Shown: positions 2,473 to 26,108, numbered from the stretch's first letter. The stretch: 32,000 bases of DNA from an uncultured archaeon (GCA_964480435.1 CAYZSS010000004.1:1-32000); one strand, 5' to 3'. The notes: generated by a model not told the origin, from the letters alone. Numbers and translations: made by a program.

Positions 2473-3006
2473 ATGATACTAAAGAATTCTAAGGGACAGG
2501 AAAGTATAGTTTTTGAAGTTCTAATTGCAGTAATCCTTATGACTTTTGTTTTTATTATTGGGGGTTATGCAATGACCTCTTTAAACCAAACAAAATGTTC
2601 TAAAGAAGTAGATTCTACAATGAGTCAACTAGCGGTAGCAATAGAAAAAGCAGGATCAGTAAGTATTGGGTCCTATTATTACACTTTTTCAGAAAGCTCG
2701 TGTTTTAGAGACAATAATACAACCTATATTCTAAAAGAAGAAACTTCAGCGCTTTGCTCATCCTATTGCCCCGGATCGACCCAATGTTATTTATTAAAAT
2801 ATAATAATTCTAGTGACCCGGTAAGCACAGTGAGATATAAATGTGTAAATATCTCAAGATATGTGACTTTTAATGGGGGTAGCTGTACAAACCCTCCGGA
2901 TGCGGGCTATGAAACCTTGCCAGGATTAACTTTTTCATCGGGAAATTATATATTTGAATCTTACTCTCTGGGTAACCCTGAAATTTGTATTTATATAAAA
3001 AAGTGA
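2473..3006 (+). CDS. Type IV pilin-like protein (class III signal peptide), Cys-rich extracellular domain
   Basis: The N-terminus MILKNSKG|QESIVFEVLIAVILMTFVFIIGGYAM has basic residues, then Gly, then about 25 hydrophobic aa. Gln follows the Gly, as in EppA-type archaeal pilins. The remainder is N/S/T-rich with 8 Cys. Confidence 0.6.
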   Translation: MILKNSKGQESIVFEVLIAVILMTFVFIIGGYAMTSLNQTKCSKEVDSTMSQLAVAIEKAGSVSIGSYYYTFSESSCFRDNNTTYILKEETSALCSSYCPGSTQCYLLKYNNSSDPVSTVRYKCVNISRYVTFNGGSCTNPPDAGYETLPGLTFSSGNYIFESYSLGNPEICIYIKK

Positions 3007-3010
3007 TTTT

Positions 3011-3661
3011 ATGCTTGACTTTATAATATCTAAGATTGGAATGCTGCTTTTTGCACTGGCTGTGGCATCTGTCCTAATATTCTTTTCTTTAGGTATGAAA
3101 GAAATGTTTGTTGCTGAGCAAGGGCGAGAAATAGCAGCATCAATTATAACTCAAGCAAAAGGTCTGTCAGAAATTGATGCGCTTTGTACATCCTTAAGGC
3201 TGACTATTCCACGTTATATTGATGTTTATGGGTCAACAGAAACATTTTCTTTATCTGCAATAAATTATACTTTTAAAATTACAAAAGTACCTCTTGTCGA
3301 TGGAGAAACAAATACAATTGTTTTTAGCATGTATAAAAAACAAGGCAAAAAAGAAGGAAAACTTTTTGCAGTAAATAGTTTTAATACAACCTCAGAAATA
3401 AGATTTGTTGATTCAATATGGCAAATTATAGGCGATACTAATTTAGAGTGGGATCCAACCAGTGCACTTTCAAATGTAATTTATATTGTAAAAAATCAGG
3501 AAGCAGGGGAAGAAATTATTTATTTTGTTAGATGTGGATATGATAAGACAAAAGCACAACCATACCAATTATGTTATGATGCTCTTGATAGTTTAAAAAC
3601 TAATAAGGGGGTTTACTGTGTTCCAACAAAAAAAGACGAAACAGATACTACAGGGCCATAA
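3011..3661 (+). CDS. Pilin-like or N-terminally anchored extracellular protein
   Basis: ATG lies 4 nt after the previous stop. The N-terminus MLDFIISKIG|MLLFALAVASVLIFFSLGM is a single hydrophobic helix after K-I-G. The rest is soluble with 4 Cys. The pilin call rests only on the N-terminus and operon context. Confidence 0.45.
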   Translation: MLDFIISKIGMLLFALAVASVLIFFSLGMKEMFVAEQGREIAASIITQAKGLSEIDALCTSLRLTIPRYIDVYGSTETFSLSAINYTFKITKVPLVDGETNTIVFSMYKKQGKKEGKLFAVNSFNTTSEIRFVDSIWQIIGDTNLEWDPTSALSNVIYIVKNQEAGEEIIYFVRCGYDKTKAQPYQLCYDALDSLKTNKGVYCVPTKKDETDTTGP

Positions 3662-4361
3662 AAAACAAAAAGGGTTTATAGGAAGACACAAAGTTTCTGA
3701 AACGAAACTTTTGTCAGGCCCTAAAGCTTTTTGCGATAAGCAAAAAGGCTTTATAGGTGCAATTGGGGATGACCTTCCTAGCTTGGTGCCGATATTTTTT
3801 TCTCTGCTTATTTTCTTTGGGACGTTGTCATATGTTTTTATTACTTTAAATGAAAAAAATACTTATCTTGAAAAATATTTCGAATCAATTTCAGTATCTA
3901 AAGAAGCACTTGGCAGTAGTTTCTTTTCAGGATATGCTGAGTTTGAAGAGAGGGTGGCTAGTATCAATACTACTGAAAACTATATTGTGGGTTTAATTTA
4001 TGATCCAAATCTGCTTGGAAATGAAGGGGGCGGAACAGTAGATACTTTAGACCGCGAGAATTTCATAAAAAGTTGTCAGATTGGAAATAATGAAGAATAT
4101 ATTATTCCATATCTTAATCCAGATCCTTATATTGGGCCTGATGTTTACTATACTGGTAAAGGCGCAGATCAAGATCTTTGTGATTCCAATGTTGTGCATT
4201 TTTTTATTCCTAATGATGTTCAATATTTAAATAATCCTACTGATGTAATTGATGCAAAATTTATTTTTAAGAATCAAACCCCTTTCATATATTTTTATCC
4301 TGTTGCTCTGTCTACTAGTGAAGGTGTTATAACTGCATACTTGTATGTGCTGGTTTGGTGA
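3618..4361 (+). CDS. Pilin-like or N-terminally anchored extracellular protein; start codon ambiguous
   Basis: The stop at 4359-4361 is firm. There is no in-frame ATG near the 5' end. Candidate starts are GTG 3618 (44-nt overlap with the upstream gene), TTG 3711, and TTG 3783 or GTG 3786. From TTG 3711 the N-terminus reads LSGPKAFCDKQKG|FIGAIGDDLPSLVPIFFSLLIFFGTLSYVFITL, which is class III-like. From 3783 it starts directly with the hydrophobic helix. nt 3662-3782 look non-coding (hairpins, duplicated TATA-like 17-mer). Confidence 0.55.
   Translation: MFQQKKTKQILQGHKKQKGFIGRHKVSETKLLSGPKAFCDKQKGFIGAIGDDLPSLVPIFFSLLIFFGTLSYVFITLNEKNTYLEKYFESISVSKEALGSSFFSGYAEFEERVASINTTENYIVGLIYDPNLLGNEGGGTVDTLDRENFIKSCQIGNNEEYIIPYLNPDPYIGPDVYYTGKGADQDLCDSNVVHFFIPNDVQYLNNPTDVIDAKFIFKNQTPFIYFYPVALSTSEGVITAYLYVLVW
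3666..3757 (+). promoter_or_regulatory. Duplicated BRE/TATA-like 17-mer flanking two hairpins at the gene 2 / gene 3 junction
   Basis: Direct repeat CAAAAAGGGTTTATAGG (3666-3682) and CAAAAAGGCTTTATAGG (3741-3757), 1 mismatch, 75 nt apart. Hairpin 1: 3685-3697 pairs with 3704-3715 (12 bp, one bulged C at 3689, loop TGAAAC). Hairpin 2: 3725-3734 pairs with 3740-3750 (10 bp, one bulged G, loop GATAA). Confidence 0.45.
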
Positions 4362-4365
4362 ATTT

Positions 4366-5268
4366 ATGAAAAATAAAAAAGTTTTTTCAAAAGGAGTATC
4401 AAGTAGCATAGCCACGAAGATACGGTCTTTTTGGGCCACTCACCCTTTTCTTAAAAGGGCAGAAGGGCAGGCAGCAGTAACAGATGCATTATTTTTCTTA
4501 ACAATTATTTCAGTTGTTAGTGTTCTTCTTTTTACAAGTGCAATGAGTTATGGAAAAGGGTTAATGGAAAGTAGTACAGAATATTATGAAAATACTTTTA
4601 CTGTTTCAGCACTGAAAACTCTTTATGCTGTTGCTGTTCCTTTGGAACCAGATAAATATGACATCTTGGATAGTAACTATAATGATAATTTATTTACTGT
4701 TTTGAAAAAAGATTACTTTATTTCTTCAGTAAATGCAGCGGCAGATCCTGCACAGGAAGCTATGCTTGATATAAATACTCAAAAAAAGTTAATGGAATCT
4801 TTAAAAAAAATTATGGCTCCTCTTGATAAAAGTAAAAATTATTTATTTTATATAAACATTCCTGAAGATGTGTCTGGAAAACAAAAAATGATATTTGTTG
4901 GCTTAGTTACTTTTAGAGATAAATATGACTCTTATACTGGCCCAAACCCAAAAACAACTTATCTTTGTGGGCCTAATCCTGGAAAACCTAGTACCTTAGC
5001 ACTTGATGATATACAACTATATTTGAAAAAACATAGTTTAGGGCAAAGATTTGCAGAAGGAAGGCTGAGTTTATTAGTAAAAAGTGGTGTAGACGATAAA
5101 TTAATTATTGCACATACTGGTCTTATTTCATGGACTGCCTCTCCTGATTTTGATCCTAATGATAATCCATATGATGAGAAAATAGGCGAATTATTAAATG
5201 AAAGATGTTGTAAATATGTTGATGTAAGTGATGCAATAGATTGTAGTAGTGTTTCTCAACCAGACTAA
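4366..5268 (+). CDS. Type IV pilin-like protein with long leader (class III signal-like)
   Basis: GGTGA (4357-4361) sits 4 nt upstream of ATG 4366. The alternative ATG 4345 would overlap the upstream gene. The N-terminal region reads ...HPFLKRAEG|QAAVTDALFFLTIISVVSVLLFTSAM (Gly-Gln followed by a hydrophobic helix). The leader of about 37 aa is unusually long. The C-terminal domain is soluble and ends with a Cys-containing tail. Confidence 0.5.
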   Translation: MKNKKVFSKGVSSSIATKIRSFWATHPFLKRAEGQAAVTDALFFLTIISVVSVLLFTSAMSYGKGLMESSTEYYENTFTVSALKTLYAVAVPLEPDKYDILDSNYNDNLFTVLKKDYFISSVNAAADPAQEAMLDINTQKKLMESLKKIMAPLDKSKNYLFYINIPEDVSGKQKMIFVGLVTFRDKYDSYTGPNPKTTYLCGPNPGKPSTLALDDIQLYLKKHSLGQRFAEGRLSLLVKSGVDDKLIIAHTGLISWTASPDFDPNDNPYDEKIGELLNERCCKYVDVSDAIDCSSVSQPD

Positions 5269-5327: not shown

Positions 5328-5364
5328 GTTTCAGGAGCTGAAACAAATTCCTTTTTTGGAATTT
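5328..5364. terminator. Tandem hairpins with a T6 run between convergent genes (bidirectional terminator candidate)
   Basis: GTTTCAG (5328-5334) / GAG / CTGAAAC (5338-5344) is followed directly by AAATTCC (5345-5351) / TTTTTT / GGAATTT (5358-5364). The second hairpin overlaps the stop codon of the minus-strand gene. Confidence 0.5.
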
Positions 5365-6436
5365 ATTTCTTCTCAACTTTCTTTTTTTCAGTAGGAAGAT
5401 CAAGATTTAAGTTTAAGTCAAGATCTTGAAGATCGGCATTGTTTATTTTTCCTTTTCCACCAAAGTTAGATAAATCTAAATTTAAATCAAACCCCGCACT
5501 TGTTGGAGTAGTTGTTTTTTCTTCAGTATTTTCTTTTTTTATTTTTTCTTCAGCTGGTTTTTCTTCATCTTTTGGAGCCATCATTTTTTTAACTTCTTCA
5601 TCTCTGGCAAGTTGAGCAAAAATATTATCTACTACCTGGTTTATTTCTTCTCTTTTGTCAGGCTCTCTGTTGTGTCTATCTCTGAATCTTCCAACCTCTT
5701 CTTTAGTAAGTCTCTCAATTTCTTCTCTTGGTTTATTTAATTCGGTTTTATCTTTTACTTGAGTATATATTACATCAACAATATTATCTTGCACAGTCCC
5801 GGATGAATTGGATTTTTCAGATTCTATTGATTTTAATCTTTCTCTGTAATGTCTTGAACCATCATCAGTTGTATTTTGTACACTGCTACTTGCTTCTTCT
5901 GGTTTATTTGTATCTCTATAAAATCTTCTAAGTCTTCTGGGAACTTGAGTAATATCTTTGTCTTTATTATTTTGAGTATTTTCTGGTTTTTTTTCAGTTA
6001 TAGCAGGTATGTTGGTTGTAGGTTGTACAGTTTTTCCTATTTCAGGGACAACAGGTTTTGTTTCTATATTATCTGGTTTTTGTTGCTCTTTAGCTACTTC
6101 GACTTCTGTTGTTTTTGGCACCTGTTCCTTCATTTTCATAATCAAATTATCAACCTCACTAAAATCATTTTCTTCTTTTTTTTCAGAAATTGCATCCAGA
6201 TTTGCTGCTGAGTCTTCCACTTCTTCTTTTATAGTCATTTTTTCTGGCTCTTTTGTAATTTCTTTTGGGTTATTTTTTTTACTATAAAGGATATTAACTA
6301 CTTCTTTTGCTATTTTTTGTGAGTATCCCTCAGAAGTAACGGCATTAATAATTTCTTCTTTAGAATAAATATCCTTGTATTTTCCAAGGAGTTCAATTAA
6401 TTTATCTATTTCTTTTGAGACCACGTTAACACCCAA
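5363..6436 (-). CDS. Lys/Glu-rich low-complexity (probably disordered) protein with a small helical N-terminal domain
   Basis: 357-codon ORF. The three plus-strand ORFs overlapping it are F/L/S-rich antisense artefacts. The N-terminal 55 aa (KEIDKLIELLGKYKDIYSKEEIINAVTSEGYSQKIAKEVVNILY) look like a 3-helix bundle. The middle is E/K/T/P-rich. The C-terminus has DLNLDL-type repeats (FDLNLDLSNF, DLQDLDLNLNLDLP) and a KKK tail. The start is non-ATG: TTG 6436 or GTG 6424. Confidence 0.7.
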   Translation of the reverse strand: MGVNVVSKEIDKLIELLGKYKDIYSKEEIINAVTSEGYSQKIAKEVVNILYSKKNNPKEITKEPEKMTIKEEVEDSAANLDAISEKKEENDFSEVDNLIMKMKEQVPKTTEVEVAKEQQKPDNIETKPVVPEIGKTVQPTTNIPAITEKKPENTQNNKDKDITQVPRRLRRFYRDTNKPEEASSSVQNTTDDGSRHYRERLKSIESEKSNSSGTVQDNIVDVIYTQVKDKTELNKPREEIERLTKEEVGRFRDRHNREPDKREEINQVVDNIFAQLARDEEVKKMMAPKDEEKPAEEKIKKENTEEKTTTPTSAGFDLNLDLSNFGGKGKINNADLQDLDLNLNLDLPTEKKKVEKK

Positions 6437-6506: not shown

Positions 6507-6998
6507 ATGGCAATTACATTTTCAGGGGTATTTTTTTCTGTTTTATATTGGCTAATTTCTGCGGCTGTGCTGTTTTTTATTATTTTATTTTTAGGCCATT
6601 TTTACCAACCTTTTAAAAAGAAGGTAAACATTACTGAAGTTTATTCATTGTTTTTATTTTCTGCAATAGTAGATTATATCCTTTTCATAATAATCTATTT
6701 ACTTCCTTTGATTTTTGGAGTTAGGTCTGATTTGGTGGGGCTCTATGATGTGTGGTACATGTATGTTTATGTTGTTTTTATAATTCTATTAAAATTGTTG
6801 CTTTATTCAGTACTGTTTACTTTGATAATACAACCAGTAATACTTTTAAGCTTATTTTTGTATGAAAAGTTTATTAAAAAGAATAGCGAAATTCTTTCAA
6901 AATTTTATGTTTCTGTAATAATTTCGTTTTTGGTAACTTTTATTTTATTTTTGTTTCCTTGGATTCTTGGGGGATTTATTGCAATGGTATTTTTTTAG
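6507..6998 (+). CDS. Small polytopic membrane protein (about 5 TM segments), function unknown
   Basis: The protein is almost entirely hydrophobic (F/I/L/V-rich) with short basic loops (QPFKKKVN, EKFIKKNSE). I prefer ATG 6507 over the TTG 6498 of the track. Its TAG stop (6996-6998) lies inside the SD of the next gene. Confidence 0.75.
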   Translation: MAITFSGVFFSVLYWLISAAVLFFIILFLGHFYQPFKKKVNITEVYSLFLFSAIVDYILFIIIYLLPLIFGVRSDLVGLYDVWYMYVYVVFIILLKLLLYSVLFTLIIQPVILLSLFLYEKFIKKNSEILSKFYVSVIISFLVTFILFLFPWILGGFIAMVFF

Positions 6999-7007
6999 GT
7001 GACTGCT

Positions 7008-10000
7008 ATGGATAGAAAACTTTTGTTCATGTATTTTATTATTTTTAATATGCTTTTTTCTACTATGGCTTTTGCATATAGTCCCACAACTGTAGATAGT
7101 AGTGTGGCCTGTAGAAATGAAAAATTAAGCCCTGAAGAAATAAACATTCTTTGGGATAACTATCTCAGAACAGGGTTTACTCCAACAAATATTTATTCAG
7201 GAACCCCTGAAGAACTGAAAGCAGAAGAAAAAACAAAAATAAAAGAAGAACCAAAAGCTGGTGAAGAAGGGTTAATACCAAGTATAATGAATATGGCTGG
7301 TGATAAGGCCATTGCAACTGTTGATATAGATACTGGAAAAAAAGTATCCGAAGATGCTCTTTGTTTTACTAAAGTAATTTCTGGTGATTATGCCTATGGT
7401 GGGATTTTATCAGATTCCCTAAGAGTAGGGCGATGTACAGAAGATACTCCTGGTTGTTCTGTATCAGGAGAGGGTTTACAATTTAAAAATACTGAAGGTG
7501 CATTAAAAATTTACTGGGAAGGAGTAAAAGCTATTATTGGTCTTGGTGAGGAAAAAACACAGCCAGGCTCTTATCTTGCAGGTCCAGTAAATACTGAACA
7601 ACTTAAAGAACAAGAAGAAGTAGTATCTGCGTTTGGTACGTCTGAAGCTGTTGAAAGTGCAGATGGTACTGCTGCAGAAAGTGATTTGGCCAGCACAGGT
7701 GCCGCGAGTAATGAATTAGAATTAATGAAAGTAAATCACGAAGCACAACCTAATGCAATGAGTAGCCTTTGGGTTGATGATATGTCTGCAGAGTTTTTGA
7801 TGTTATGTAATAATCAAGATTCAGGAAACAGATGTAGAGTATTATTGTATTCTTTTTTTGATAAATATTACAATTCTTATTATTCTGGTGGTTTAGTGGT
7901 AGTTGCGGGTGGCCCGGTTGCGTGGGGTGCAACAAAAAAACTTTTTGGAGGTATTTCTGCATTTAAATATGGTGGAAAAATAACTACTGGAATAAAAAAA
8001 GTGACGGATCCAGTAAAAGAGTTTATGACCAATACCTGGTATAAGCTAACTGAAAAAGATTTCAAATATTTTTCATCTAATGTGTTAGGAAAAACACAGG
8101 CAGCACTAAAGCACGGTGGAATTGGTGATGGATTAAAAGTTCTTGGAGATAATGTTTATGAAGCAAATACAAGCAAGGCTATTGCTGCTGCTCAAAAAGA
8201 GCTGGTTCCTAAACTGACGACTACTGAGTCAAAAGAAGCAATAGGGGCAGTTTTAGAAGCAAGAGCATCAGCAGCAGAATATGGTAAGGGATATTTAAAT
8301 AGTCTTAAGAATGCAGCCCCTGAATATAAATTAAAGGCTGCAATGCAAGCAGGAGAAAATGCTCCTGCTCTTTTAGGGGCGGAAATGAACAAAGCATTTT
8401 TAGAAAAAAATTATGCTGGTTGGATGTATGATTCTGCTGGCGCAAAGGCTATTAGTTCTGTACCCATTACTGATAAAGTTGCAGCAGAAGGTTTTTTAAA
8501 AGGAAATTTAGACCCTGCAAAAATATATAAAATGGTCCCTGGGCAAAGTCAAGGAAACCATGTAATTGGCAATTTAAAAAATTTTATGCAAAACCACGCG
8601 GGCTCAGATTTCATAGTAGATATTGGTGGTAATCCAGTAATACTTAATGCTGGTACTGTTGATGGTATAGTAGCACAAGCAGGAAAAGAAGGTATTACTG
8701 AACTGGAAATAAAGGCTGGTAGTAGATTAAATATTGATTTTGCTGAGTTTGGGGGTTATGATGGTTTTAGCAAAAAGTTTGCTAAAGATTATTTTGATGA
8801 TGTTTCAAAAAAATATAGTGTTGCCGCAACAAATTATCAAGCAGTAACAGAGGCCTTACAAAGTGCAAAGAAAATCCCTACAAGAAGCCCAAATGCAATG
8901 AAATTCATGATGAATGTTATGAATGGAAAAGGTGGAGCAGCGGGGAGTTTTATATTAAAATATGAAACAATACCAGCATTATATTGGCTTGCAAAAACTA
9001 GTGATTCAAGTCCAATAAAAGCATATATGATAAAAGACCAAGATATTACAAATGTAAAAGCATACACAGGGCCTGACGCAATTTATGCAGGTGCTTATAT
9101 TGATGTTTTCGCAAAAGAAGGTAGTGATAACGGGGATCTATTTAACAAAGCCCTGAAATATACTTTGTTCCCTTTAGATTTATTTAGTAAAGTAGCTCCA
9201 ACAGCAACAGGGTATCTTAAATCATTTTTCGGTCACCAATTTAGGGATACTCCGGGGGATGTAATTATTTATAATGAGGCCTTAAAGTGTACAACTGCCT
9301 CTTGTTTTATTTCATTAACTGGTAGTAAAAAAATAGTAAATGCAGGTGAAGTAAATTTAAGGACAGATAGTTTGCTTATGAGTGGAAAATCATTACAAGG
9401 GACAAAAAATTATTTTGTAGAATTCCCTGATTCTGATGTTTACAAAAAAACAGGTCTTACTTTAGGGGCCTTTGTTCATGGTATGAATGTAGTGGGAAAG
9501 CAGGGGGAAATAAACCTAGCATCTGCTGCAGCAAAGAAGGAAGATTGTTTAACTAAGTCAAAAGAATTAACTATTGCTGGGGTGCCTGTGGGAAGTATAA
9601 TGGCTTCAGATGCTGATCCTGCAAAACTTGCGATGCCAATAGGTATTTTTGAGAATACAATTGGGTTTGTGCTTCCTGGTCTTCCGGGATTGGGAGTTGG
9701 TATTGCTGTAAGTCTACTAATACAGGATGATATTCAGGAACAAATTGGAGAATGTGTAGACACTATTGATGGGTATTATGTAACTTATTCTTTAATACCG
9801 TATAAACCTGAAGAAGACAATGGTATTATGTCAAAAATTAAAGAAACAGTTTCAGAAGGAAAAGAGCAAAAACCGTCTATGCTTACCGATACAGCTATAG
9901 GGAAAGTTGCTGATAAAATAAAAGACCAATTTAGTTCAATAATACAAGATAAAACACATGAAGGTATTCAGATAAACTTGGATACAAAAGGAAAAACAAG

Positions 10001-11384
10001 CCAATCTGTATCTCTTGAGGATGTATTTTTGATTTGGGAAGGGCCAAATGCAAGCCAAACAAATCTGAAATACAAGGACACCGGAAAACTTGCATTAGTA
10101 GATAAGGACGGAAATGCAGCAATTATGGATTTTGATAAAGGTACTTTTACTATTAATGGAGAAACTATAAGTAATCCAGATATTGTTAGATTAATGGAAA
10201 AAGATAATCTTGGGCCATTTATTGCAATGCCTGTGGTAGTAACTGTAATTCCTGCAATAAGTTCGGGAGATATGTTCGAAGCAAAGACAAATGGGGACTT
10301 TGTTGTAAAAGACCCTGGGATGCTAGATTGTATAAGGCAAGGAGTATTTGAACAAACTGGGCAGGAAATGACTGGTAGTTCTTTGTTTGAGCATATGGGA
10401 CCTGTGACCCAGATGTTATTGGAAAATGGGCAAACTGTAGCTCCAACTTTAATAGGTTCAAGCAGTTATTTTGAAATTTTGGGAGGATCTACGGGTCGTG
10501 TTACTTTGTATAATTCAACGCTTACTGTTACAAAAGATAGATCAATAATTGTTAGGAATGCAAAAGAAACTAATCAATATGATAAAGTGGTGGGAATTGC
10601 ATTTGAAAAAGGGTCAATACTTTACAAACCAGAAACAAATGAATTTATTATGTGGATAAAGATTATGGCAGAAATGGATGGAAAGTTTGTTTCTAGTATG
10701 ACTCCAACACACACAACACAAATAAATGAAGAAACTGGTTGTGAAGAAGATGCTTTTGATTTGAAATTAGCTCCTTTGCAAGGGGATGTTACTGCAGCAG
10801 AGGATGTAGACAAGATGAATACCGCTTTAGAAAAAGCAGGGCCATTCCAATACTTTAAAACTCCAGAGTACACTATTATGTTTTATGCGCAGATGGTGGA
10901 TGGTGTTTGTAAAAGATTTATGAAAGTGATGGATAAAGACGGCAATGTAATAAGCGATTCAGAGATAACAAGTATAACAGCAACTCCTGATGGTTATGAA
11001 ATTACAACAGCAGATGGTAAAACACACGATATAGGCTTTTCTGCTGAAAATGGGCAGCCTATGCTGACCTTTGATGGACAAAAATCTCCTTTAACAATAG
11101 CACAAGGAAAAGATGGTGCTTTCTTTTATGACCCTAGTACAGGAAAATGGTATGTTGATAATGCCCAATTACTGCCTATAGATGATGACTTTAAGAGATT
11201 AGGGTCAAACACAGTGGGGAATTCTAATACTCCTGGAGGTAACCCAATAGAAGGTGGATTAAACCCATCAAGTGGTTCAGGCTCAAGTTGGGATATTCCA
11301 TTAACTGATGATTGGTTATTATACGGCTTAGTAATGTTATTTAGTGGAATGTTTGTGTATTTGATTTCAAGAAAGGACGAATAA
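7008..11384 (+). CDS. 1458-aa orphan envelope protein: Sec signal peptide, two internal Gly-rich hydrophobic segments, C-terminal TM anchor
   Basis: AGGTGA (6997-7002) sits 5 nt upstream of ATG 7008. The signal peptide is MDRKLLFMYFIIFNMLFSTMAFA|YS. Internal hydrophobic stretches are GGLVVVAGGPVAWGA (nt 7887-7931) and IGFVLPGLPGLGVGIAVSLLI (nt 9660-9723). The C-terminus is WLLYGLVMLFSGMFVYLISRKDE. Composition is A/G/K-rich, unlike the N/S/T-rich beta-type surface proteins elsewhere in the window. I recognise no domain. Confidence 0.8.
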   Translation: MDRKLLFMYFIIFNMLFSTMAFAYSPTTVDSSVACRNEKLSPEEINILWDNYLRTGFTPTNIYSGTPEELKAEEKTKIKEEPKAGEEGLIPSIMNMAGDKAIATVDIDTGKKVSEDALCFTKVISGDYAYGGILSDSLRVGRCTEDTPGCSVSGEGLQFKNTEGALKIYWEGVKAIIGLGEEKTQPGSYLAGPVNTEQLKEQEEVVSAFGTSEAVESADGTAAESDLASTGAASNELELMKVNHEAQPNAMSSLWVDDMSAEFLMLCNNQDSGNRCRVLLYSFFDKYYNSYYSGGLVVVAGGPVAWGATKKLFGGISAFKYGGKITTGIKKVTDPVKEFMTNTWYKLTEKDFKYFSSNVLGKTQAALKHGGIGDGLKVLGDNVYEANTSKAIAAAQKELVPKLTTTESKEAIGAVLEARASAAEYGKGYLNSLKNAAPEYKLKAAMQAGENAPALLGAEMNKAFLEKNYAGWMYDSAGAKAISSVPITDKVAAEGFLKGNLDPAKIYKMVPGQSQGNHVIGNLKNFMQNHAGSDFIVDIGGNPVILNAGTVDGIVAQAGKEGITELEIKAGSRLNIDFAEFGGYDGFSKKFAKDYFDDVSKKYSVAATNYQAVTEALQSAKKIPTRSPNAMKFMMNVMNGKGGAAGSFILKYETIPALYWLAKTSDSSPIKAYMIKDQDITNVKAYTGPDAIYAGAYIDVFAKEGSDNGDLFNKALKYTLFPLDLFSKVAPTATGYLKSFFGHQFRDTPGDVIIYNEALKCTTASCFISLTGSKKIVNAGEVNLRTDSLLMSGKSLQGTKNYFVEFPDSDVYKKTGLTLGAFVHGMNVVGKQGEINLASAAAKKEDCLTKSKELTIAGVPVGSIMASDADPAKLAMPIGIFENTIGFVLPGLPGLGVGIAVSLLIQDDIQEQIGECVDTIDGYYVTYSLIPYKPEEDNGIMSKIKETVSEGKEQKPSMLTDTAIGKVADKIKDQFSSIIQDKTHEGIQINLDTKGKTSQSVSLEDVFLIWEGPNASQTNLKYKDTGKLALVDKDGNAAIMDFDKGTFTINGETISNPDIVRLMEKDNLGPFIAMPVVVTVIPAISSGDMFEAKTNGDFVVKDPGMLDCIRQGVFEQTGQEMTGSSLFEHMGPVTQMLLENGQTVAPTLIGSSSYFEILGGSTGRVTLYNSTLTVTKDRSIIVRNAKETNQYDKVVGIAFEKGSILYKPETNEFIMWIKIMAEMDGKFVSSMTPTHTTQINEETGCEEDAFDLKLAPLQGDVTAAEDVDKMNTALEKAGPFQYFKTPEYTIMFYAQMVDGVCKRFMKVMDKDGNVISDSEITSITATPDGYEITTADGKTHDIGFSAENGQPMLTFDGQKSPLTIAQGKDGAFFYDPSTGKWYVDNAQLLPIDDDFKRLGSNTVGNSNTPGGNPIEGGLNPSSGSGSSWDIPLTDDWLLYGLVMLFSGMFVYLISRKDE

Positions 11385-11402
11385 AGGGGCATAAGGGATA
11401 AT

Positions 11403-11783
11403 ATGAAATCTATAACGCGATTTAAAGAAAAAGTAAAAACTTGGCGTGCTGAAAGAGTAGAAAAAAAAAGTCTAAAACGAGCCCAGGCTTTACAAAGATT
11501 AGATGAGTTAGGTAAGTTGCTTGATTATTGCTCAGAAGCACCTGTATGTAGAAGAATAAGTGCAAATTCTAAGCTTATTTCTGAAGCAGAAACTCTAAGT
11601 AAAAAATTGTGGTGGATGGGATTAAGAAAAGAAGCCAGACAAGCACATGGAATTGCAGTTACAGGTGCAATATTTTATTGGGTAAACAATTTGGGGAACC
11701 ATCCTATAAATTTTTCTTATGAGCAACAAGAAGAAATTTTAAAATTTCTTTTGCATAAGGGGCCAAGACCACACGGCTTATAG
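11403..11783 (+). CDS. Hypothetical basic helical protein (126 aa)
   Basis: The ORF starts 18 nt after the 1458-aa gene, with a G-rich SD-like AAGGGA upstream. There is no signal peptide. It mixes CGN and AGA arginine codons. No recognisable motif. Confidence 0.55.
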   Translation: MKSITRFKEKVKTWRAERVEKKSLKRAQALQRLDELGKLLDYCSEAPVCRRISANSKLISEAETLSKKLWWMGLRKEARQAHGIAVTGAIFYWVNNLGNHPINFSYEQQEEILKFLLHKGPRPHGL

Positions 11784-11799: not shown

Positions 11800-12492
11800 C
11801 TAAATAATATTTGGGCCATTATACTCTTTTTCTTTTGATTCTTTTAACTGGTCACTAACTGCGTTTCCCAGTTCTTTGGATTCTTCCAATAGTGGTTTTG
11901 TGTCTATATTTAAATCATACATTTTGTTTAGTACTACTATTGCCTTGGCTGCAGCATCATAATTTTTTCTTGCTGTAAAAGGCACTAAAATTAAATAAAT
12001 TGGGAACTCTTTCTCAAGAATAAAGAATTGTGCTCCTATTCCAGCAGTAATCCCTTCTTTGATTTTTTGTATTTTGTAAGTATCTAAATATTCTAAATTC
12101 TTTTTATTGTTGGCAACACCATAAACAGCTCCATTCTTGTTGTCAATAATTCCACCAATGGAAACAATTCTTGCCATTTTTGCTTTCTTTGCCCAGTTTA
12201 AAACAATGTTACAATATGACTTCAGGTCCTCTTTCTGAATTACTTGGTCTGAAATAATACAGATTAACTTATGCTTGTGTGATGCGTACGCCCTTATTGG
12301 CTGTTGTGGCAAGCCATTCTCAATCTTTACTATTGGAGTAGTGTTTTCGTGGTCAAAATGGCCTAAATACTCCATTTTTAGTTTTTCTATTAAATATTTT
12401 GTAGTAATAGAACTTACCAAGTCAGCGGAAGGGAATCCTTCGACTAAAGTATAGCCTTTATATGTTTTTTGAGATTTAAAGAACAAACCCAT
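11800..12492 (-). CDS. PAC2-family (proteasome assembly chaperone-like) protein
   Basis: The layout matches what I remember of PF09754/COG1938 proteins. It has an N-terminal LVEGFPSADLVSSITTKYLIEKL segment, a central IRAY...LICIISDQ segment and NWAKKAKMARIVSIGGI. This is a motif-level match only. Confidence 0.6.
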   Translation of the reverse strand: MGLFFKSQKTYKGYTLVEGFPSADLVSSITTKYLIEKLKMEYLGHFDHENTTPIVKIENGLPQQPIRAYASHKHKLICIISDQVIQKEDLKSYCNIVLNWAKKAKMARIVSIGGIIDNKNGAVYGVANNKKNLEYLDTYKIQKIKEGITAGIGAQFFILEKEFPIYLILVPFTARKNYDAAAKAIVVLNKMYDLNIDTKPLLEESKELGNAVSDQLKESKEKEYNGPNII

Positions 12493-15114: not shown

Positions 15115-15150
15115 TAATTATATTATTTATTATTTATTTTTTTTGAGTTG

Positions 15151-15951
15151 ATGTTTATGGTTAAAAGAAAGAAGTTAGGTTTGGCTCTTGGTGGAGGGGC
15201 AGCAAAAGGTTTTGCACATATTGGTGTTTTCTCTGTATTTGAGGAGGAAGGAATACCAATTGATTATATTTGTGGCTCAAGTATAGGTGCTTTAATAGGT
15301 GGGCATTATTCTTTACACAAAAATATTGACCTTCTTAAATCAGATGCATTTTCATTTCTTAAAGAAAATAATTTGGCTGTTTATGATTTTATAAAACCGG
15401 GATATAAAGCGAAGATAAATAATATAGAGCTTTTTATGGAGTCTGTTTACAAAAGCAAAAGATTTTCTGATACTTTAATACCTTTTTCTTGTACAGCGGT
15501 AAATATAGAAAACGGAACTGTTCTTGATATTTCTGAGGGTCGGTTAATTGATGCTATTTTTGCTAGTATGAGTATTCCCGGGTTATTCCCTCCAAGATTC
15601 TTTTGGGGTGCCTGGTTGGTTGATGGTGGGCTATTAAATAACCTGCCGGTTGATATTGTTTCAAAGAAAGGGTATGATGTTGTTGTTGGTGTTGATTTAG
15701 GGGATATAGATGCATTAAAAAAAATTGAATCAAAACCAACAAGAGTTGATTGTTTGAAAAGAGCGGTAGTAATTATGGTTGAGGAAATCACAAGCCGTAT
15801 AAAAAATTCAGTAGAAGATGCAATAATTATAAATCCAAAAATAATTGCATCAGGTCTTAAATTTGACTATGCGGCATCAAAAAAACAGATGAAAGAAGGG
15901 GAGACCGCCGCAAGAAAAGTAGTTGATGAAATAAAAAAACAACTGAAGTGA
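15151..15951 (+). CDS. Patatin-like phospholipase (RssA-type)
   Basis: It has a Gly-rich oxyanion motif (LALGGGAAKG), the nucleophile elbow GSSIG (G-x-S-x-G) and the catalytic Asp motif VDGGLLNNLP. There is no signal peptide. I prefer ATG 15151 over TTG 15148. Confidence 0.9.
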   Translation: MFMVKRKKLGLALGGGAAKGFAHIGVFSVFEEEGIPIDYICGSSIGALIGGHYSLHKNIDLLKSDAFSFLKENNLAVYDFIKPGYKAKINNIELFMESVYKSKRFSDTLIPFSCTAVNIENGTVLDISEGRLIDAIFASMSIPGLFPPRFFWGAWLVDGGLLNNLPVDIVSKKGYDVVVGVDLGDIDALKKIESKPTRVDCLKRAVVIMVEEITSRIKNSVEDAIIINPKIIASGLKFDYAASKKQMKEGETAARKVVDEIKKQLK

Positions 15952-15955
15952 TTTT

Positions 15956-16492
15956 ATGCAATTCTTTAAGAAAATAAAAAACTTGGCATACAATAAAAAG
16001 AAAAATAATTTTGTCTTGACTTTATCTTCTAAACTCATTTTTTTCTTGGGTTTGTTCCTAATTTCTTTTGTTCTATTATATGTTTTATTTGTTTATTCTG
16101 GACTTTACAATAATCTTTCCGGATTTTTTGCACAAACCGTTTACAACCATTTTTCTTATAACTCTGATATTACTCTTGCCGGAACAACTATTGATTTTAA
16201 GGCTTTTGAAATAAATATTACTTCTGTTTGTTCAGGGGTTTATGAATTAATTGTATTTCTTGCATTGATTTTTGCCTGCTTTGAAATTAAACTGTGGAAA
16301 CGTGTGGTAGGGGCATTATTTTATTTTGTTTTCTTTGTTGTTTTTAATTTTATTAGAATGATAACTGTCATTTATTCTTTTGCATATTTTGATTTATTTT
16401 CTGTTGATTTGTTGCACACTCTGTTATTTAAATTTGGTTTTTTTATTATTACTTTTTTATTCTTTTTATATTTTTTAATTATTGCGGACTAA
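15956..16492 (+). CDS. Archaeosortase/exosortase-family protein, minimal (178 aa)
   Basis: Polytopic membrane protein with the family's three signature residues in order and context: ITSVCSGVYEL (Cys in CSG), NFIRMITV (Arg) and DLLHTLLFKFG (His). AAGTGA lies 4 nt upstream of the ATG. Confidence 0.75.
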   Translation: MQFFKKIKNLAYNKKKNNFVLTLSSKLIFFLGLFLISFVLLYVLFVYSGLYNNLSGFFAQTVYNHFSYNSDITLAGTTIDFKAFEINITSVCSGVYELIVFLALIFACFEIKLWKRVVGALFYFVFFVVFNFIRMITVIYSFAYFDLFSVDLLHTLLFKFGFFIITFLFFLYFLIIAD

Positions 16493-23692: not shown

Positions 23693-24940
23693 ATGCAGAT
23701 TAGTTACAATAATTACATTGACAAGATTATCAATAGTAGAACTAACTGTGCTGAATTTATGAAAGTTCCTGTTAATATTCAGGCACGCGTATTTTTGTTT
23801 TTACCACAACACATTCAAAAAAATATTTTACAAAACATATCAGAAATTCATTTGTTAAAACTTCTTAAATACCCCGCTCCTGATGATGTGACTGACATAA
23901 TACAGAAACTGTCTTATTTTAAAAGAAAGAAAATATTGGATAAACTAGAAACTGAACTAAGAGAAAAAGTATCTTATTTACTAAAATACCCTGAGGATAC
24001 TGCAGCAGGAATGATGGATTTAAACTATGTTTTGGCATCAGTGGATTTAAAGTTTAAGGACCTGGCAAATATTGTTGAAAAACACAAAAATAAAACAGGA
24101 AAAGACCCGGTTGTTTTGGTTGAAGAAAATGGTGTTCTGCTTGGGGAATTATCTGCCACATCTTTTATTTTGAATTCTCCTAGTAAAGAAATAAAAAACA
24201 ATATTACCAAAATTCCTGTTGTAAAATATAATGAAAAACATTCAAAAGTTTTTAAATTATTTGAACATAATAAAAATAACAAAATTGTTGTTTTAGATAG
24301 CGACAATTCTATAATGGGTATAATTTATGCACACGATATTTATAAGTTAGTAAAAAAACAAAGAACAAAGGACATGTATGACTTTGCAGGACTAAAACAA
24401 GAAGAAGATATTTTTGATAGTTTTTATCTAAAATTTAAAAATAGGTGCTTTTGGTTAGTTATAAATCTTTTTACAGCATTTCTTGCATCTCTGGTTGTAG
24501 CAATATTTAGAGATGTAATTTCAGCAGTAGTGATGCTTGCAGCATATATGCCTATTGTTGCTGGTATGGGTGGTAATGCAGGCACCCAGACCCTGGCAGT
24601 AACTGTAAGGGGATTAGCCCTGCATAATTTAAAAACTAAGGCGCTTTCAAGAATTTATTTTAATGAATTAGTGTCTGCTTTTTTAATTGGGCTAGTAGTA
24701 GGGGCATTTGCAATTGTTTTGGCATATGTCTTGAATGCGAGTTTAATTTTTGGAGTAATTGTAGCAGTATCTGTGTTGGCTAATTTATTAGTAGCAGCAA
24801 CGGTTGGATTTTTTATCCCTGTGCTTTTGAAAAAATTAGGGAAAGATCCTGCAACATCATCAAGTATTTTTATTACTACTTTTACTGATGTTCTTGGATT
24901 CTTTGTATTCTTGGGCTTGGCCACTTTAATTTTCTTGTGA
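23693..24940 (+). CDS. mgtE: Magnesium transporter MgtE
   Basis: MgtE N-domain, then a CBS pair (VLVEENGVLLGELS; VVLDSDNSIMGIIYAHDI), then a TM domain with the signature PIVAGMGGNAGTQTLAVTVRGLAL. Confidence 0.92.
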   Translation: MQISYNNYIDKIINSRTNCAEFMKVPVNIQARVFLFLPQHIQKNILQNISEIHLLKLLKYPAPDDVTDIIQKLSYFKRKKILDKLETELREKVSYLLKYPEDTAAGMMDLNYVLASVDLKFKDLANIVEKHKNKTGKDPVVLVEENGVLLGELSATSFILNSPSKEIKNNITKIPVVKYNEKHSKVFKLFEHNKNNKIVVLDSDNSIMGIIYAHDIYKLVKKQRTKDMYDFAGLKQEEDIFDSFYLKFKNRCFWLVINLFTAFLASLVVAIFRDVISAVVMLAAYMPIVAGMGGNAGTQTLAVTVRGLALHNLKTKALSRIYFNELVSAFLIGLVVGAFAIVLAYVLNASLIFGVIVAVSVLANLLVAATVGFFIPVLLKKLGKDPATSSSIFITTFTDVLGFFVFLGLATLIFL

Positions 24941-26089: not shown

Positions 26090-26108
26090 TTTAATCACTT
26101 GGCTAGGG

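What the first reader, a model, noticed from the sequence alone, without database searches (positions are those of the whole stretch)
6507..11783. Operon of a small polytopic membrane protein, a 1458-aa orphan envelope protein with embedded Gly-rich hydrophobic segments, and a small basic protein
Seen in sequence:
- The stop codon of the 5-TM gene (TAG 6996-6998) lies inside the AGGTGA Shine-Dalgarno of the giant gene (ATG 7008), which indicates tight translational coupling.
- The giant protein has a clear Sec signal peptide (AFA|YS) and a C-terminal TM anchor with an SRKDE tail.
- It has two internal hydrophobic, Gly/Pro-rich stretches: GGLVVVAGGPVAWGA at 7887-7931 and IGFVLPGLPGLGVGIAVSLLI at 9660-9723.
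- Its A/G/K-rich composition differs from the N/S/T-rich beta-repeat surface proteins nearby.
- A 126-aa basic helical protein follows 18 nt downstream.
- I recognise no domain in any of the three proteins.

Inference: this is a dedicated membrane complex of unknown function. A large ectodomain with membrane-insertable segments, next to the pilin-like locus, could act in membrane contact with or perturbation of a host cell. That role is speculative.
Basis: partly seen in the sequence, partly recalled or inferred. Interest (0 to 1): 0.65.

Follow-up and report, generated by a model that had tools for sequence, protein, structure and literature searches.

The report
Pilus-locus giant surface protein of DPANN archaea
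The 1458-residue protein is not an orphan: it belongs to an unannotated family of giant, membrane-anchored surface proteins that, together with a small membrane partner, sits in a conserved type IV pilus-like gene cluster of two phyla of tiny, largely host-associated archaea, which makes it a candidate cell-surface or host-contact component whose function is still untested.

Summary
Three parts of the framing do not hold.

1. The giant protein is not an orphan. An exhaustive HMMER search found 195 cluster representatives. Those that carry a source name are all Diapherotrites/Iainarchaeota or Micrarchaeota and all "hypothetical".
2. The 126-aa basic protein has no relative in any related locus. 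It lies in a variable slot and is not part of a conserved unit.
3. Two of the three hydrophobic stretches I examined are not membrane segments.

The conserved unit is larger than the finding: four ordered prepilin-like genes, a divergent Lys/Glu-rich gene, the ~165-aa polytopic membrane gene, then the giant gene. In relatives this block lies beside or in line with pilus ATPase (T2SSE) and platform (T2SSF) genes.

Every full-length family member has a Sec-type signal peptide and about 10 invariant cysteines. Nearly all also carry a previously undescribed C-terminal signal, F-N-L-P-S-L-P-E + TM + R-x-R. An archaeosortase-family gene lies 4.6 kb downstream in the window.

AlphaFold models show a helical middle region and a confident all-beta C-terminal region. 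Neither has a convincing structural relative.

Best reading: a sortase-type-anchored envelope protein that works with an Epd/Tad-like pilus system. A membrane-active role is not excluded but is weakly supported.

The parts
2473..3006 (+). Prepilin-like gene A (177 aa). N-terminus is ...NSKG|QESIVFEVLIAVILMTFVFIIGG.
   Evidence: Class III-type N-terminus read from the translation. Orthologues lie in the same position in L001, L003 and L008-L012, and in distant loci L015, L018 and L020 (hmmsearch E 2e-12 to 1.5e-17). No Pfam or NCBIfam pilin model matches.
3011..3661 (+). Pilin-locus gene B (216 aa). It has an N-terminal hydrophobic helix but no obvious prepilin cleavage site.
   Evidence: Translation. 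Orthologues occupy the second position in relatives (E 4.5e-9 to 4.7e-7 in distant loci).
3618..4361 (+). Prepilin-like gene C (up to 247 aa). It carries the conserved motif KG|FIGAIGDDLPSLVP followed by a hydrophobic helix.
   Evidence: The motif is conserved in L001 and L003. Orthologues occupy the third position (E 7e-18 to 4e-11). The true start codon is uncertain.
4345..5268 (+). Prepilin-like gene D (up to 307 aa). It carries the conserved motif GQ|AAVTDALFFLTII.
   Evidence: The motif is conserved in L001 and L003. Orthologues occupy the fourth position (E 8e-18 to 7e-9). An AGGTG lies upstream.
5363..6436 (-). Divergently oriented Lys/Glu-rich protein (357 aa) with no TM segment, presumably cytoplasmic.
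   Evidence: 45% identical in L001. A gene of similar size and orientation sits between the pilin genes and the TM-giant pair in the window, L001, L003, L004, L006, L015, L018 and L020. No family match. Function unknown.
6507..6998 (+). Small polytopic (~5-TM) membrane protein, the conserved partner of the giant gene.
   Evidence: Hydropathy analysis. An orthologue lies directly upstream of the giant gene in 12 of 15 loci. Conserved features are Y-x-x-P, a basic residue in TM3 and a C-terminal FPW. There is no conserved Cys/His/Ser set, so no sign of a catalytic site. A TTTAAA box lies about 30 nt upstream of the ATG.
6997..7002 (+). AGGTGA Shine-Dalgarno-like motif overlapping the upstream stop codon.
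   Evidence: Read directly from the sequence. Such motifs occur before only about five genes in this window, mostly ones that closely follow an upstream same-strand gene.
7008..11384 (+). Giant surface protein (1458 aa): signal peptide, Cys-containing ectodomain and C-terminal sorting-type anchor.
   Evidence: Family of 195 representatives. 73 columns are invariant among 11 genome-derived members, including C35, C143, C150, C761, C766, C847, C916, C1108, C1245 and C1301. No Pfam, NCBIfam or PDB sequence match.
7008..7076 (+). Sec-type signal peptide (residues 1-23, ...MAFA|YS).
   Evidence: Charged n-region, hydrophobic core and an A-x-A-like site. Nearly all full-length family members show the same kind of N-terminus. 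The cleavage site was not checked with a dedicated predictor.
8034..8876 (+). Mainly alpha-helical region (about residues 343-623) with a small alpha/beta insert.
   Evidence: AlphaFold2 N-half model: block pLDDT 75-92 here, against a model mean of 60. The best Foldseek hits are IpaD/SipD and Hbl/MakB/SmhB helical bundles, but they are not significant (E 0.09-2, probability <=0.15).
9546..9755 (+). Conserved hydrophobic, Gly/Ala-rich loop bracketed by invariant Cys847 and Cys916.
   Evidence: Found in 75 family members. Median loop length is 60 aa, with a 24-aa uncharged stretch, a median best 19-residue hydropathy of 1.37, and G+A of 22% against 15% overall. It is modelled as two helices with block pLDDT about 57. 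A disulfide between the two cysteines is inferred, not shown.
9957..11207 (+). Confidently modelled all-beta C-terminal ectodomain (about residues 984-1400).
   Evidence: Block pLDDT is 75-97 across this span and about 88-97 over residues ~1030-1390. Only weak beta-propeller-like Foldseek hits in PDB and BFVD, with E >=1e-4, TM <=0.15 and rmsd about 20 A. No internal sequence repeats by hhalign. This is the part retained by the most distant family members.
11289..11381 (+). C-terminal tripartite signal: W-D-I-P-L-T-D (family consensus F-N-L-P-S-L-P-E), a hydrophobic helix, then a basic tail.
   Evidence: The Pro equivalent to P1431 is present in 92 of 94 members, and the motif in 86 of 94. Among 1266 ORFs in all held loci, only the giant proteins combine this motif with a C-terminal hydrophobic helix in the expected arrangement.
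11403..11783 (+). 126-aa basic ORF. It is lineage-specific and probably not part of the system.
   Evidence: No homologue in any related locus, the metagenome scan, phages, or Pfam, NCBIfam and PHROGs. The slot downstream of the giant gene is variable: a 41-aa ORF in L001, an MNT/HEPN-like pair in L004, and DUF473 in L015 and L018.
15956..16492 (+). Exosortase/archaeosortase-family protein (178 aa), the candidate processing enzyme for the C-terminal signal.
   Evidence: TIGR04178 scores 37.2 bits against a cutoff of 23. There are weak hits to archaeosortase D and pacearchaeosortase. Cys (VCSG), Arg (IRM) and His (LHT) are present. An orthologue lies at the same relative position in L001. The link to the giant protein is inferred.

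Best explanation
The 5-TM gene and the giant gene are a co-transcribed, co-conserved pair. They form the distal end of a conserved type IV filament (Epd/Tad-like) gene block in Iainarchaeota (Diapherotrites) and Micrarchaeota.

Proposed mechanism:
1. The giant protein is exported by Sec and folds outside the cell into a disulfide-stabilised ectodomain of about 1400 residues. The layout is a Cys-containing N-terminal part, a helical middle and an all-beta C-terminal part.
2. It is held at the membrane by a C-terminal tripartite signal (consensus NLPSLPE + TM + basic tail).
3. That signal is most likely recognised by the archaeosortase-family enzyme encoded nearby. The enzyme would replace the helix with another anchor, as ArtA does for PGF-CTERM proteins.
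4. At the surface it works with the four ordered pilin-like proteins and the pilus ATPase and platform. Its role there would be an envelope-spanning scaffold or base, or an adhesin presented with the filament.
5. The small polytopic protein is its membrane docking or assembly partner.

Shown: family membership, protein architecture, synteny and the C-terminal motif. Inferred: sortase processing, physical association with the pilus, and the role of the 5-TM partner.
For: Operon structure:
- The stop codon overlaps the SD motif, and SD-like motifs in this window occur mostly before genes that closely follow an upstream same-strand gene.
- The TM partner lies directly upstream of the giant gene in 12 of 15 loci.

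Synteny over 16-54% protein identity:
- Four orthologous pilin-like genes keep a fixed order, followed by the divergent gene, the TM gene and the giant gene.
- T2SSE plus two T2SSF genes lie just beyond in L003, L006, L010, L011, L015 and L018.
- T2SSE and T2SSF lie directly upstream in the same orientation in L018 and L020.

Extracellular, anchored architecture:
- A signal peptide is present in nearly all full-length members.
- Ten cysteines are invariant.
- The NLPSLPE-type motif, helix and R-x-R tail are present in 86-92 of 94 members.

Candidate enzyme:
- An archaeosortase-family gene with Cys, Arg and His lies 4.6 kb downstream, and also in L001.

Precedent:
- Large signal-peptide proteins with a single C-terminal TM and conserved cysteines have been noted in archaeal type IV pilus loci, and large adhesin-like proteins and extra membrane proteins in Epd-type loci (PMC4858521).
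Against: - No experiment or expression data exist for any family member.
- The conserved block also contains PAC2, a gene with no obvious pilus role. Part of the synteny may therefore be inherited gene order in small genomes.
- In the window and its closest relatives, the ATPase and platform genes are not nearby.
- The pilin-like genes match no curated pilin model. They are called pilin-like from their N-terminal motifs and context only.
- No curated C-terminal sorting model matches the signal.
- The archaeosortase gene was seen only next to the window and L001 copies.
- No other protein with the same signal was found in the roughly 300 kb held, so enzyme-substrate pairing is unproven.
Confidence: 0.55

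Rival explanations
1. The giant protein is a general envelope building block: either the main S-layer protein of Iainarchaeota, or a membrane-anchored stalk that holds a separate S-layer sheet (a SlaB-like role). On this reading its position next to pilus genes is inherited gene order rather than functional coupling.
For: - Size, signal peptide, acidic pI (4.9; family median 5.1) and a Gly/Ser-rich linker before a C-terminal anchor.
- A sortase-type C-terminal signal, as on the Haloferax S-layer glycoprotein (PMC6098224).
- The characterised Micrarchaeota S-layer protein has no predicted C-terminal anchor, and its authors suggest a second, anchored subunit may exist (bioRxiv 10.1101/2021.04.28.441871).
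- PAC2 inside the conserved block shows that unrelated genes can be syntenic here.
Against: - No match to S_layer_N, S_layer_C or the TIGR S-layer models in 33 members.
- Micrarchaeota already have a different, highly abundant S-layer protein of the PF05123 type.
- There are 13 cysteines, 10 of them invariant, and a long helical region. Classic S-layer proteins are described as nearly free of sulfur-containing residues.
- The window protein has 3 N-glycosylation sequons where about 9.5 are expected from its composition.
- The tight pairing with a dedicated small membrane protein and the fixed order after four pilin-like genes hold across two phyla.
Confidence: 0.2
2. The giant protein is a membrane-active host-contact device. 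It is anchored in the DPANN cell, and its conserved Cys-bracketed hydrophobic loop (residues 847-916) and helical bundle insert into or perturb the host membrane, in the manner of an internal fusion loop or a translocator or tip protein.
For: - The hydrophobic Gly/Ala/aromatic-rich loop between two invariant cysteines is conserved in 75 members. Its best 19-residue window has a favourable interfacial score, median -4.5 kcal/mol.
- The best, though non-significant, structural neighbours of the helical region are T3SS tip proteins and ClyA-family pore-forming toxins.
- The overall layout (signal peptide, large ectodomain, internal hydrophobic segment, C-terminal anchor) resembles membrane-fusion proteins (my own knowledge).
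- Cytoplasmic connections between DPANN cells and their hosts are reported, but the proteins responsible on the DPANN side are unknown (PMC11329633).
Against: - The structural hits have E 0.09-2 and probability <=0.15, so they are no better than generic helical-bundle similarity.
- No hit to fusogens or pore formers in PDB or BFVD for the C-terminal half that contains the loop.
- The loop carries conserved Glu and Gln and is only moderately hydrophobic, which fits a buried or interface helix pair equally well.
- The other two hydrophobic stretches are not membrane segments.
- Whether Iainarchaeota are host-attached at all is not established here.
Confidence: 0.08
3. One reading: the three genes (5-TM protein, giant protein and 126-aa basic protein) form one dedicated membrane complex.
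For: All three lie on the same strand with gaps of 9 and 18 nt.
Against: - The 126-aa ORF has no homologue in any related locus, including relatives whose giant protein is 54% identical.
- It has no match in the metagenome, phage or family searches.
- It has no hydrophobic segment.
- It lies in a slot that holds different genes in each lineage.
Confidence: 0.04

Closest known systems
'S-layer-like' and other large secreted proteins predicted in archaeal type IV pilus loci (e.g. arCOG05471; Makarova, Koonin and Albers 2016, PMC4858521)
   Same: A large protein with a signal peptide, a single C-terminal TM helix and conserved cysteines. It is encoded with pilin-like genes, TadC-like platform genes and a secretion ATPase. 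Extra small membrane proteins occur in the same loci.
   Different: That survey held no mention of DPANN, Diapherotrites or Iainarchaeum. The present family has its own conserved C-terminal motif and a dedicated 5-TM partner. Those proteins are themselves only computational predictions.
Haloferax volcanii S-layer glycoprotein with PGF-CTERM, processed by archaeosortase ArtA (PMC6098224)
   Same: A Sec-exported large surface protein with a C-terminal tripartite signal (short motif, hydrophobic helix, basic tail). An archaeosortase-family enzyme with Cys, Arg and His is encoded in the genome.
   Different: The motif is NLPSLPE-like, not PGF. The enzyme is a short (178 aa) homologue that passes only the general family signature and is not ArtA. 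The protein matches no S-layer family. Processing is not shown.
Bacterial minor-pilin operon with PilY1 (fimU-pilVWXY1 of Pseudomonas aeruginosa)
   Same: Gene logic: four ordered minor-pilin-type genes are followed by a gene for a Sec-exported non-pilin protein of more than 1000 residues. Weak beta-propeller-like structural signals appear in the C-terminal region (the PilY1 facts are from my own knowledge and PMC4858521).
   Different: No match to PilY1/PilC, DUF2341 or vWA models. The protein has a C-terminal membrane anchor, which PilY1 lacks. A divergent gene and a 5-TM gene intervene. The similarity is one of organisation only.
Sulfolobus SlaB, the membrane-anchored stalk subunit of a two-component S-layer
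   Same: A large exported protein held by a C-terminal TM helix that could support an outer lattice (suggested for Micrarchaeota).
   Different: No homology was tested or detected. SlaB is not encoded in pilus loci, and SlaB keeps its helix because Sulfolobales lack archaeosortases.

Membership tests
Archaeal type IV pilus-locus large surface ('S-layer-like') proteins | N-terminal secretion signal and a single C-terminal TM helix | tested here: met
   Hydropathy and sequence in the window. The same architecture is seen in nearly all full-length family members.
Archaeal type IV pilus-locus large surface ('S-layer-like') proteins | Several conserved cysteines | tested here: met
   Ten cysteines are invariant in 11 genome-derived members. 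C847, C916 and C1108 are invariant in 33 diverse members.
Archaeal type IV pilus-locus large surface ('S-layer-like') proteins | Encoded in a locus with pilins, TadC/T2SSF and a secretion ATPase | tested here: met
   The pilin-like genes are adjacent in the window. T2SSE and T2SSF are adjacent in L003, L006, L010, L011, L015, L018 and L020. They are absent from the window itself.
Archaeal type IV pilus-locus large surface ('S-layer-like') proteins | Sequence homology to the described arCOGs (e.g. arCOG05471) | not tested
Archaeosortase/exosortase substrates | C-terminal tripartite signal: conserved short motif, hydrophobic helix, basic cluster | tested here: met
   The consensus is F-N-L-P-S-L-P-E-N, then about 16 hydrophobic residues, then R-x-R. 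The Pro is present in 92 of 94 members and the motif in 86 of 94.
Archaeosortase/exosortase substrates | A cognate exosortase/archaeosortase encoded in the same genome | tested here: met
   Window 15956-16492 scores 37.2 bits on TIGR04178 against a cutoff of 23 and has Cys, Arg and His. An orthologue is present in L001. Other genomes could not be checked.
Archaeosortase/exosortase substrates | Match to a curated C-terminal sorting-domain model (PGF-CTERM, PEP-CTERM and others) | tested here: not met
   NCBIfam gave only a sub-threshold hit of the hydrophobic helix to an LPxTATN model (E 0.12, 12.7 bits against a cutoff of 32).
Archaeosortase/exosortase substrates | Co-occurrence of enzyme and signal across genomes; cleavage of the C-terminal helix | not testable with these tools
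   Only about 300 kb of neighbourhoods is held, and within it only the giant proteins carry the signal. No proteomic data.
Canonical archaeal S-layer protein families (PF05123, PF05124, TIGR01564, TIGR01567) | Match to an S-layer domain model | tested here: not met
   No hit in the window protein or in 33 family members at E<=0.1.
PilY1/PilC-type pilus tip adhesins | PilY1/PilC beta-propeller, DUF2341 or vWA domain | tested here: not met
   No Pfam hit in the window protein or in 33 members. Foldseek gave only generic weak propeller-like hits, and no PilY1 structure was among the top 50.
PilY1/PilC-type pilus tip adhesins | Encoded downstream of a set of minor pilin genes | tested here: met
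   Four ordered pilin-like genes lie upstream in all lineages examined. This is a resemblance in organisation, not evidence of homology.
ClyA-family pore-forming toxins / T3SS tip proteins | Significant structural similarity of the helical bundle and a hydrophobic head element | tested here: inconclusive
   The best Foldseek E-values are 0.09-2 with probability <=0.15, on a model whose mean pLDDT is 60. The beta-containing insert in the helical region is not hydrophobic.
Membrane fusogens (viral class I-III, fusexins) | Structural similarity to a known fusogen fold | tested here: not met
   No fusogen hit was significant in PDB or BFVD for the half that contains the hydrophobic loop. One coronavirus spike chain appeared at rank 32 with E 9e-3 and probability 0.15.

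The most novel reading that the evidence does not exclude
A type IV filament-like machine shared by Iainarchaeota and Micrarchaeota presents a giant, sortase-anchored protein. Its conserved disulfide-bracketed hydrophobic loop and helical bundle engage or breach the membrane of another cell. That would make it the DPANN-side device for host attachment or cytoplasmic connection.
Probability: 0.08. Interest if true: 0.9.

Novelty: new variant of a known kind. Interest (0 to 1): 0.5.

Why it matters
How DPANN archaea attach to other cells and exchange material with them is an open question, and the proteins on the DPANN side are essentially unknown. This analysis turns an apparent orphan into a defined, testable seven-gene module shared by two DPANN phyla: four ordered pilin-like genes, a Lys/Glu-rich gene, a small membrane gene and a giant anchored protein.

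It also gives a specific candidate surface component with a new C-terminal sorting-type motif. Cultivated Micrarchaeota co-cultures exist, so the family can be examined by proteomics, antibodies and cryo-ET.

Even under the ordinary reading (an envelope or pilus-associated scaffold), three things would be added:
- an unannotated protein family with two large regions that have no convincing structural relative;
- a likely new archaeosortase signal class;
- a DPANN example of the large surface proteins long predicted, but never characterised, in archaeal pilus loci.

Tried and rejected
- **Word-seeded protein searches** returned only four proteins. The exhaustive HMMER search was what revealed the family.
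- **Family and sequence-level structure searches** found nothing: Pfam, NCBIfam and PHROGs on the three proteins; Pfam on distant members and on all 33 aligned members; PDB sequence searches with two profiles.
- **Foldseek** on both AlphaFold halves against PDB, and on the C-terminal half against viral structures, gave no convincing neighbour.
- **Internal repeats** in the C-terminal beta region were not detected by hhalign (best probability 46% over 27 columns).
- **The 5-TM partner as a novel sorting enzyme or protease.** I considered this and rejected it for lack of any conserved Cys, His or Ser set.
- **Identity with the characterised Micrarchaeota S-layer protein.** Rejected, because that protein is a different family (PF05123).
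- **The 126-aa ORF as a mobile or viral insertion.** No evidence either way.
- **Literature searches** for this family, for pili in Iainarchaeota or Micrarchaeota, and for archaeosortases in these phyla found no description of it. Haft et al. 2012 on archaeosortase classes was not available.
- **One alignment of 71 full-length proteins** failed in the tool.

Full report
**Source organism.** The window is archaeal: it encodes ribosomal proteins L15e, S15/S13 and S3Ae, PAC2 and Rpp14. GC content is about 31%. The closest relatives of the central protein come from 'Candidatus ainarchaeum', Diapherotrites and Iainarchaeum genomes assembled from metagenomes. The window therefore comes from a DPANN archaeon of the Iainarchaeota (Diapherotrites) lineage.

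**Checking the observation.** All the sequence statements hold.
- The 163-aa ORF (6507-6998) has about five hydrophobic helices.
- Its TAG stop (6996-6998) lies inside AGGTGA (6997-7002), 5 nt before ATG 7008. An in-frame GTG at 6999 is the mechanical ORF start, but homologues begin at the equivalent of the ATG.
- The giant ORF encodes 1458 residues (157.6 kDa, pI 4.9). It has the N-terminus MDRKLLFMYFIIFNMLFSTMAFA|YS and a C-terminal hydrophobic helix followed by SRKDE.
- The two Gly/Pro-rich hydrophobic stretches are at residues 294-308 and 885-905, matching the quoted coordinates.
- A+G+K is 26%, against 16-21% in the neighbouring N/S/T-rich surface proteins.
- The 126-aa ORF begins 18 nt after the stop and is basic.
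- None of the three proteins matches a Pfam or NCBIfam family.
- SD-like motifs precede only about five genes in this window, mostly ones that closely follow an upstream gene on the same strand. A TTTAAA box sits about 30 nt before the 5-TM gene's ATG. Both fit co-transcription of the 5-TM and giant genes.

**Not an orphan.** Word-seeded searches returned only four proteins. An exhaustive HMMER search with a profile of residues 250-1400 found much more:
- 195 representatives of 50%-identity clusters at E<=1e-3, and 103 at E<=1e-30.
- Roughly 70 are full-length proteins of 1430-1730 residues.
- A more distant set of 1200-1680 residues shares mainly the C-terminal ~400 positions.

Every source name recovered is 'hypothetical protein' from Candidatus Diapherotrites or Candidatus Micrarchaeota. 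A scan of species-representative genomes found the gene in ten further genomes. Those with a taxon name are Iainarchaeota/Diapherotrites, including the closed genome of Ca. Forterrea multitransposorum.

**What is co-conserved.** I called ORFs in the related loci and compared them with the window genes, and used the gene calls returned with the contigs.
- The 126-aa ORF has no counterpart anywhere. The slot after the giant gene holds a 41-aa ORF in L001, a nucleotidyltransferase/HEPN-like pair in L004, an unrelated reverse gene in L003, and DUF473 in L015 and L018.
- It also has no relatives in a metagenome scan, phage genomes or PHROGs. It should not be counted as part of the system.
- In contrast, a 160-180-aa polytopic membrane protein lies directly upstream of the giant gene in 12 of 15 loci. 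It has a conserved C-terminal FPW motif but no conserved Cys/His/Ser set that would suggest an enzyme.
- Upstream of that pair, in the same order in every lineage, are a divergently oriented Lys/Glu-rich gene and four genes whose products have prepilin-like N-termini: KG|QESIVFEVLIAV..., KG|FIGAIGDDLPSLVP..., GQ|AAVTDALFFL..., and one with only an N-terminal helix.
- Profiles of these four families recover one orthologue each, in the same order, in loci that hold the most distant members of the giant family (E 1e-7 to 1e-18).

**Link to pilus machinery.** The block is tied to type IV filament assembly genes.
- In L003, L006, L010, L011, L015 and L018, a T2SSE ATPase and two half-size T2SSF platform genes lie just beyond the giant gene, after PAC2.
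- In L018 and L020, a T2SSE and a long T2SSF-like gene lie directly upstream of the pilin-like genes in the same orientation. The sequence ATPase, platform, small genes, four pilin-like genes, divergent gene(s), small TM gene, giant gene reads as one locus.
- An ATPase with two TadC-like platform proteins is the Epd/Tad-like arrangement. In the Micrarchaeote Mia14, two pilus systems of this general kind were annotated, but no protein like the giant one was listed with them (PMC5498576).
- In the window and its nearest relatives, the ATPase and platform genes are not within the held DNA.

**Architecture of the giant protein.**
- Nearly all full-length members start with a Sec-type signal peptide.
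- Ten cysteines are invariant among eleven genome-derived members, which points to an extracellular, disulfide-bonded protein.
- The C-terminus is a conserved tripartite signal: consensus F-N-L-P-S-L-P-E-N, about 16 hydrophobic residues, then R-x-R. The central proline is present in 92 of 94 sequences and the motif in 86 of 94. The window version is W-D-I-P-L-T-D.
- This is the form of sortase-type sorting signals (PEP-CTERM, PGF-CTERM), but it matches no curated model.
- An exosortase/archaeosortase-family protein is encoded 4.6 kb downstream in the window. It scores above the family signature cutoff and has Cys, Arg and His residues in hydrophobic context, as expected of the catalytic triad. 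L001 has the same gene in the same place.
- Within the held DNA, only the giant proteins carry the signal. Whether this is a one-substrate system cannot be decided from that.

**Structure models.** I modelled the protein in two halves with 33-sequence alignments.
- *C-terminal half (residues 740-1435):* mean pLDDT 79.8. Residues ~1030-1390 have block means of about 88-97 and are almost entirely beta strands punctuated by two helices.
- *N-terminal half (residues 24-770):* weak overall (mean pLDDT 60). It contains a well-modelled, mainly helical region at about residues 343-623.
- *Foldseek:* for the C-terminal half, only weak, generic beta-propeller-like neighbours in PDB and BFVD (E >=1e-4, TM <=0.15, rmsd about 20 A). 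For the helical region, non-significant hits to T3SS tip proteins and ClyA-family toxins (E 0.09-2). I treat these as 'no convincing structural relative'.
- No internal sequence repeats were detected in the beta region.

**The hydrophobic segments.**
- *Segment 294-308* is not conserved as hydrophobic. The best 19-residue hydropathy is 0.47-1.28 in relatives, which carry Asp or Glu there, and it is modelled with very low confidence. It is not a membrane segment.
- *Stretch 1068-1086*, which I noticed in the hydropathy scan, is modelled as beta strands in blocks with mean pLDDT above 90. It is hydrophobic only in the window protein, so it is protein core.
- *Segment 885-905* is more interesting. 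It lies in a loop bracketed by Cys847 and Cys916, which are invariant even in the 33-member alignment that spans both phyla. In 75 members the loop has a median length of 60 residues, a 24-residue uncharged Gly/Ala/aromatic-rich stretch, and a median best hydropathy of 1.37. It is modelled as two helices at block pLDDT about 57.
- That hydropathy is below what a constitutive TM helix usually shows, and the loop has conserved Glu and Gln. A single extra TM helix would also put the Cys-containing beta region on the wrong side of the membrane. The loop may be a buried helix pair, an oligomer interface, or a membrane-interacting element. The data do not decide.

**Comparison with what is known.**
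- A survey of archaeal type IV pilus loci describes large 'S-layer-like' proteins with a signal peptide, a single C-terminal TM helix and conserved cysteines. For Epd-type loci it also describes large adhesin-like proteins and additional membrane proteins (PMC4858521). The present protein fits that general class. The class is itself only predicted, that survey did not mention DPANN, Diapherotrites or Iainarchaeum, and homology could not be tested here.
- The gene logic also parallels bacterial fimU-pilVWX-pilY1, but no PilY1, DUF2341 or vWA domain is detectable, and PilY1 has no membrane anchor.
- It is not the known Micrarchaeota S-layer protein. That protein belongs to PF05123 and lacks a C-terminal anchor.
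- The Haloferax S-layer glycoprotein and ArtA supply the precedent for replacing a C-terminal helix with a lipid anchor (PMC6098224).

**Most likely mechanism, and how sure I am.** I put 0.55 on the following, with steps 3-5 inferred rather than shown:
1. The 5-TM and giant genes are co-transcribed.
2. The giant protein is Sec-exported and disulfide-bonded.
3. It is anchored through a new sortase-type signal, probably processed by the nearby archaeosortase homologue.
4. It acts at the surface with the pilin-like proteins and the pilus motor, as an envelope-spanning scaffold or base, or as an adhesin.
5. The 5-TM protein acts as its membrane partner.

The main rival is a general S-layer or stalk protein whose synteny is only inherited gene order (0.2). 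Conserved PAC2 in the block shows this is possible. The conserved cysteines, the low sequon count (3 against about 9.5 expected), the missing S-layer domains and the dedicated partner count against it. A membrane-active host-contact role (0.08) is the most novel reading not excluded.

**Novelty and verdict.** No curated family or paper I could find describes this protein family, its C-terminal motif or the seven-gene module. The general kind, a large anchored surface protein in an archaeal pilus locus, has been predicted before. I therefore class it as a new variant of a known kind and of moderate interest: a well-defined, testable candidate for the DPANN cell-surface or host-contact apparatus rather than a demonstrated new mechanism.

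Noticed in passing
window 26088-32000 (+), runs off the end of the window: A second giant ORF (more than 1960 aa, incomplete) with an N-terminal hydrophobic anchor and CarboxypepD_reg, MG3-like and Big_1-like beta domains. L018 has a 2507-aa protein of the same kind next to its pilus locus.
   Followed up: partly
window 11800-12492 (-); L003, L006, L010, L011, L015, L018: A PAC2-family gene is conserved between the giant gene and the T2SSF-T2SSF-T2SSE genes. In several loci it is on the same strand as, and directly after, the pilus assembly genes. This suggests either co-transcription with them or very stable gene order. DUF473 joins it in L015 and L018.
   Followed up: no
window 15148-16492 (+): A patatin-like phospholipase gene sits immediately upstream of the archaeosortase-family gene, with a 4-nt gap. 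The same pairing occurs in L001 and L002. A lipase next to a lipid-anchoring enzyme may be meaningful.
   Followed up: no
L015 16278-17825, L018 16595-18130, L020 1-1943: The pilus ATPase (T2SSE) carries 4Fe-4S ferredoxin domains in L015 and L018. In L020 it carries an intein with a LAGLIDADG domain.
   Followed up: no
window 52-2436 (+): A 794-aa protein with 6% cysteine and an N-terminal CARDB domain lies directly upstream of the four pilin-like genes. It has no C-terminal anchor. It is absent from this position in L001, where CDC48 lies upstream.
   Followed up: partly
L004 6138-6939 (-): The variable slot downstream of the giant gene holds a nucleotidyltransferase-like gene (GSFAKG...DIDILV motif) and a small HEPN-like gene in this close relative. 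The slot appears to be an insertion hot spot.
   Followed up: partly
L003 2293-2502, L018 5849-5998, L020 4923-5123: Small ORFs of 49-69 aa with a prepilin-like N-terminus (e.g. KAQG|DWSSVYLLIVFAIAALLL in L003) precede the four larger pilin-like genes in some relatives and could encode the major pilin. A pattern scan found no equivalent small ORF in the window.
   Followed up: partly
window 24926-25981 (-): A 351-aa protein with a signal-peptide-like N-terminus and a C-terminal hydrophobic helix followed by RK. It has no family match and does not carry the NLPSLPE-type motif.
   Followed up: no
L003 5182-6234 (-): In L003 the divergent Lys/Glu-rich gene ends in a double Cys-x-x-Cys zinc-ribbon-like motif that the window orthologue lacks. 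This hints at a cytoplasmic regulatory or scaffold role.
   Followed up: no
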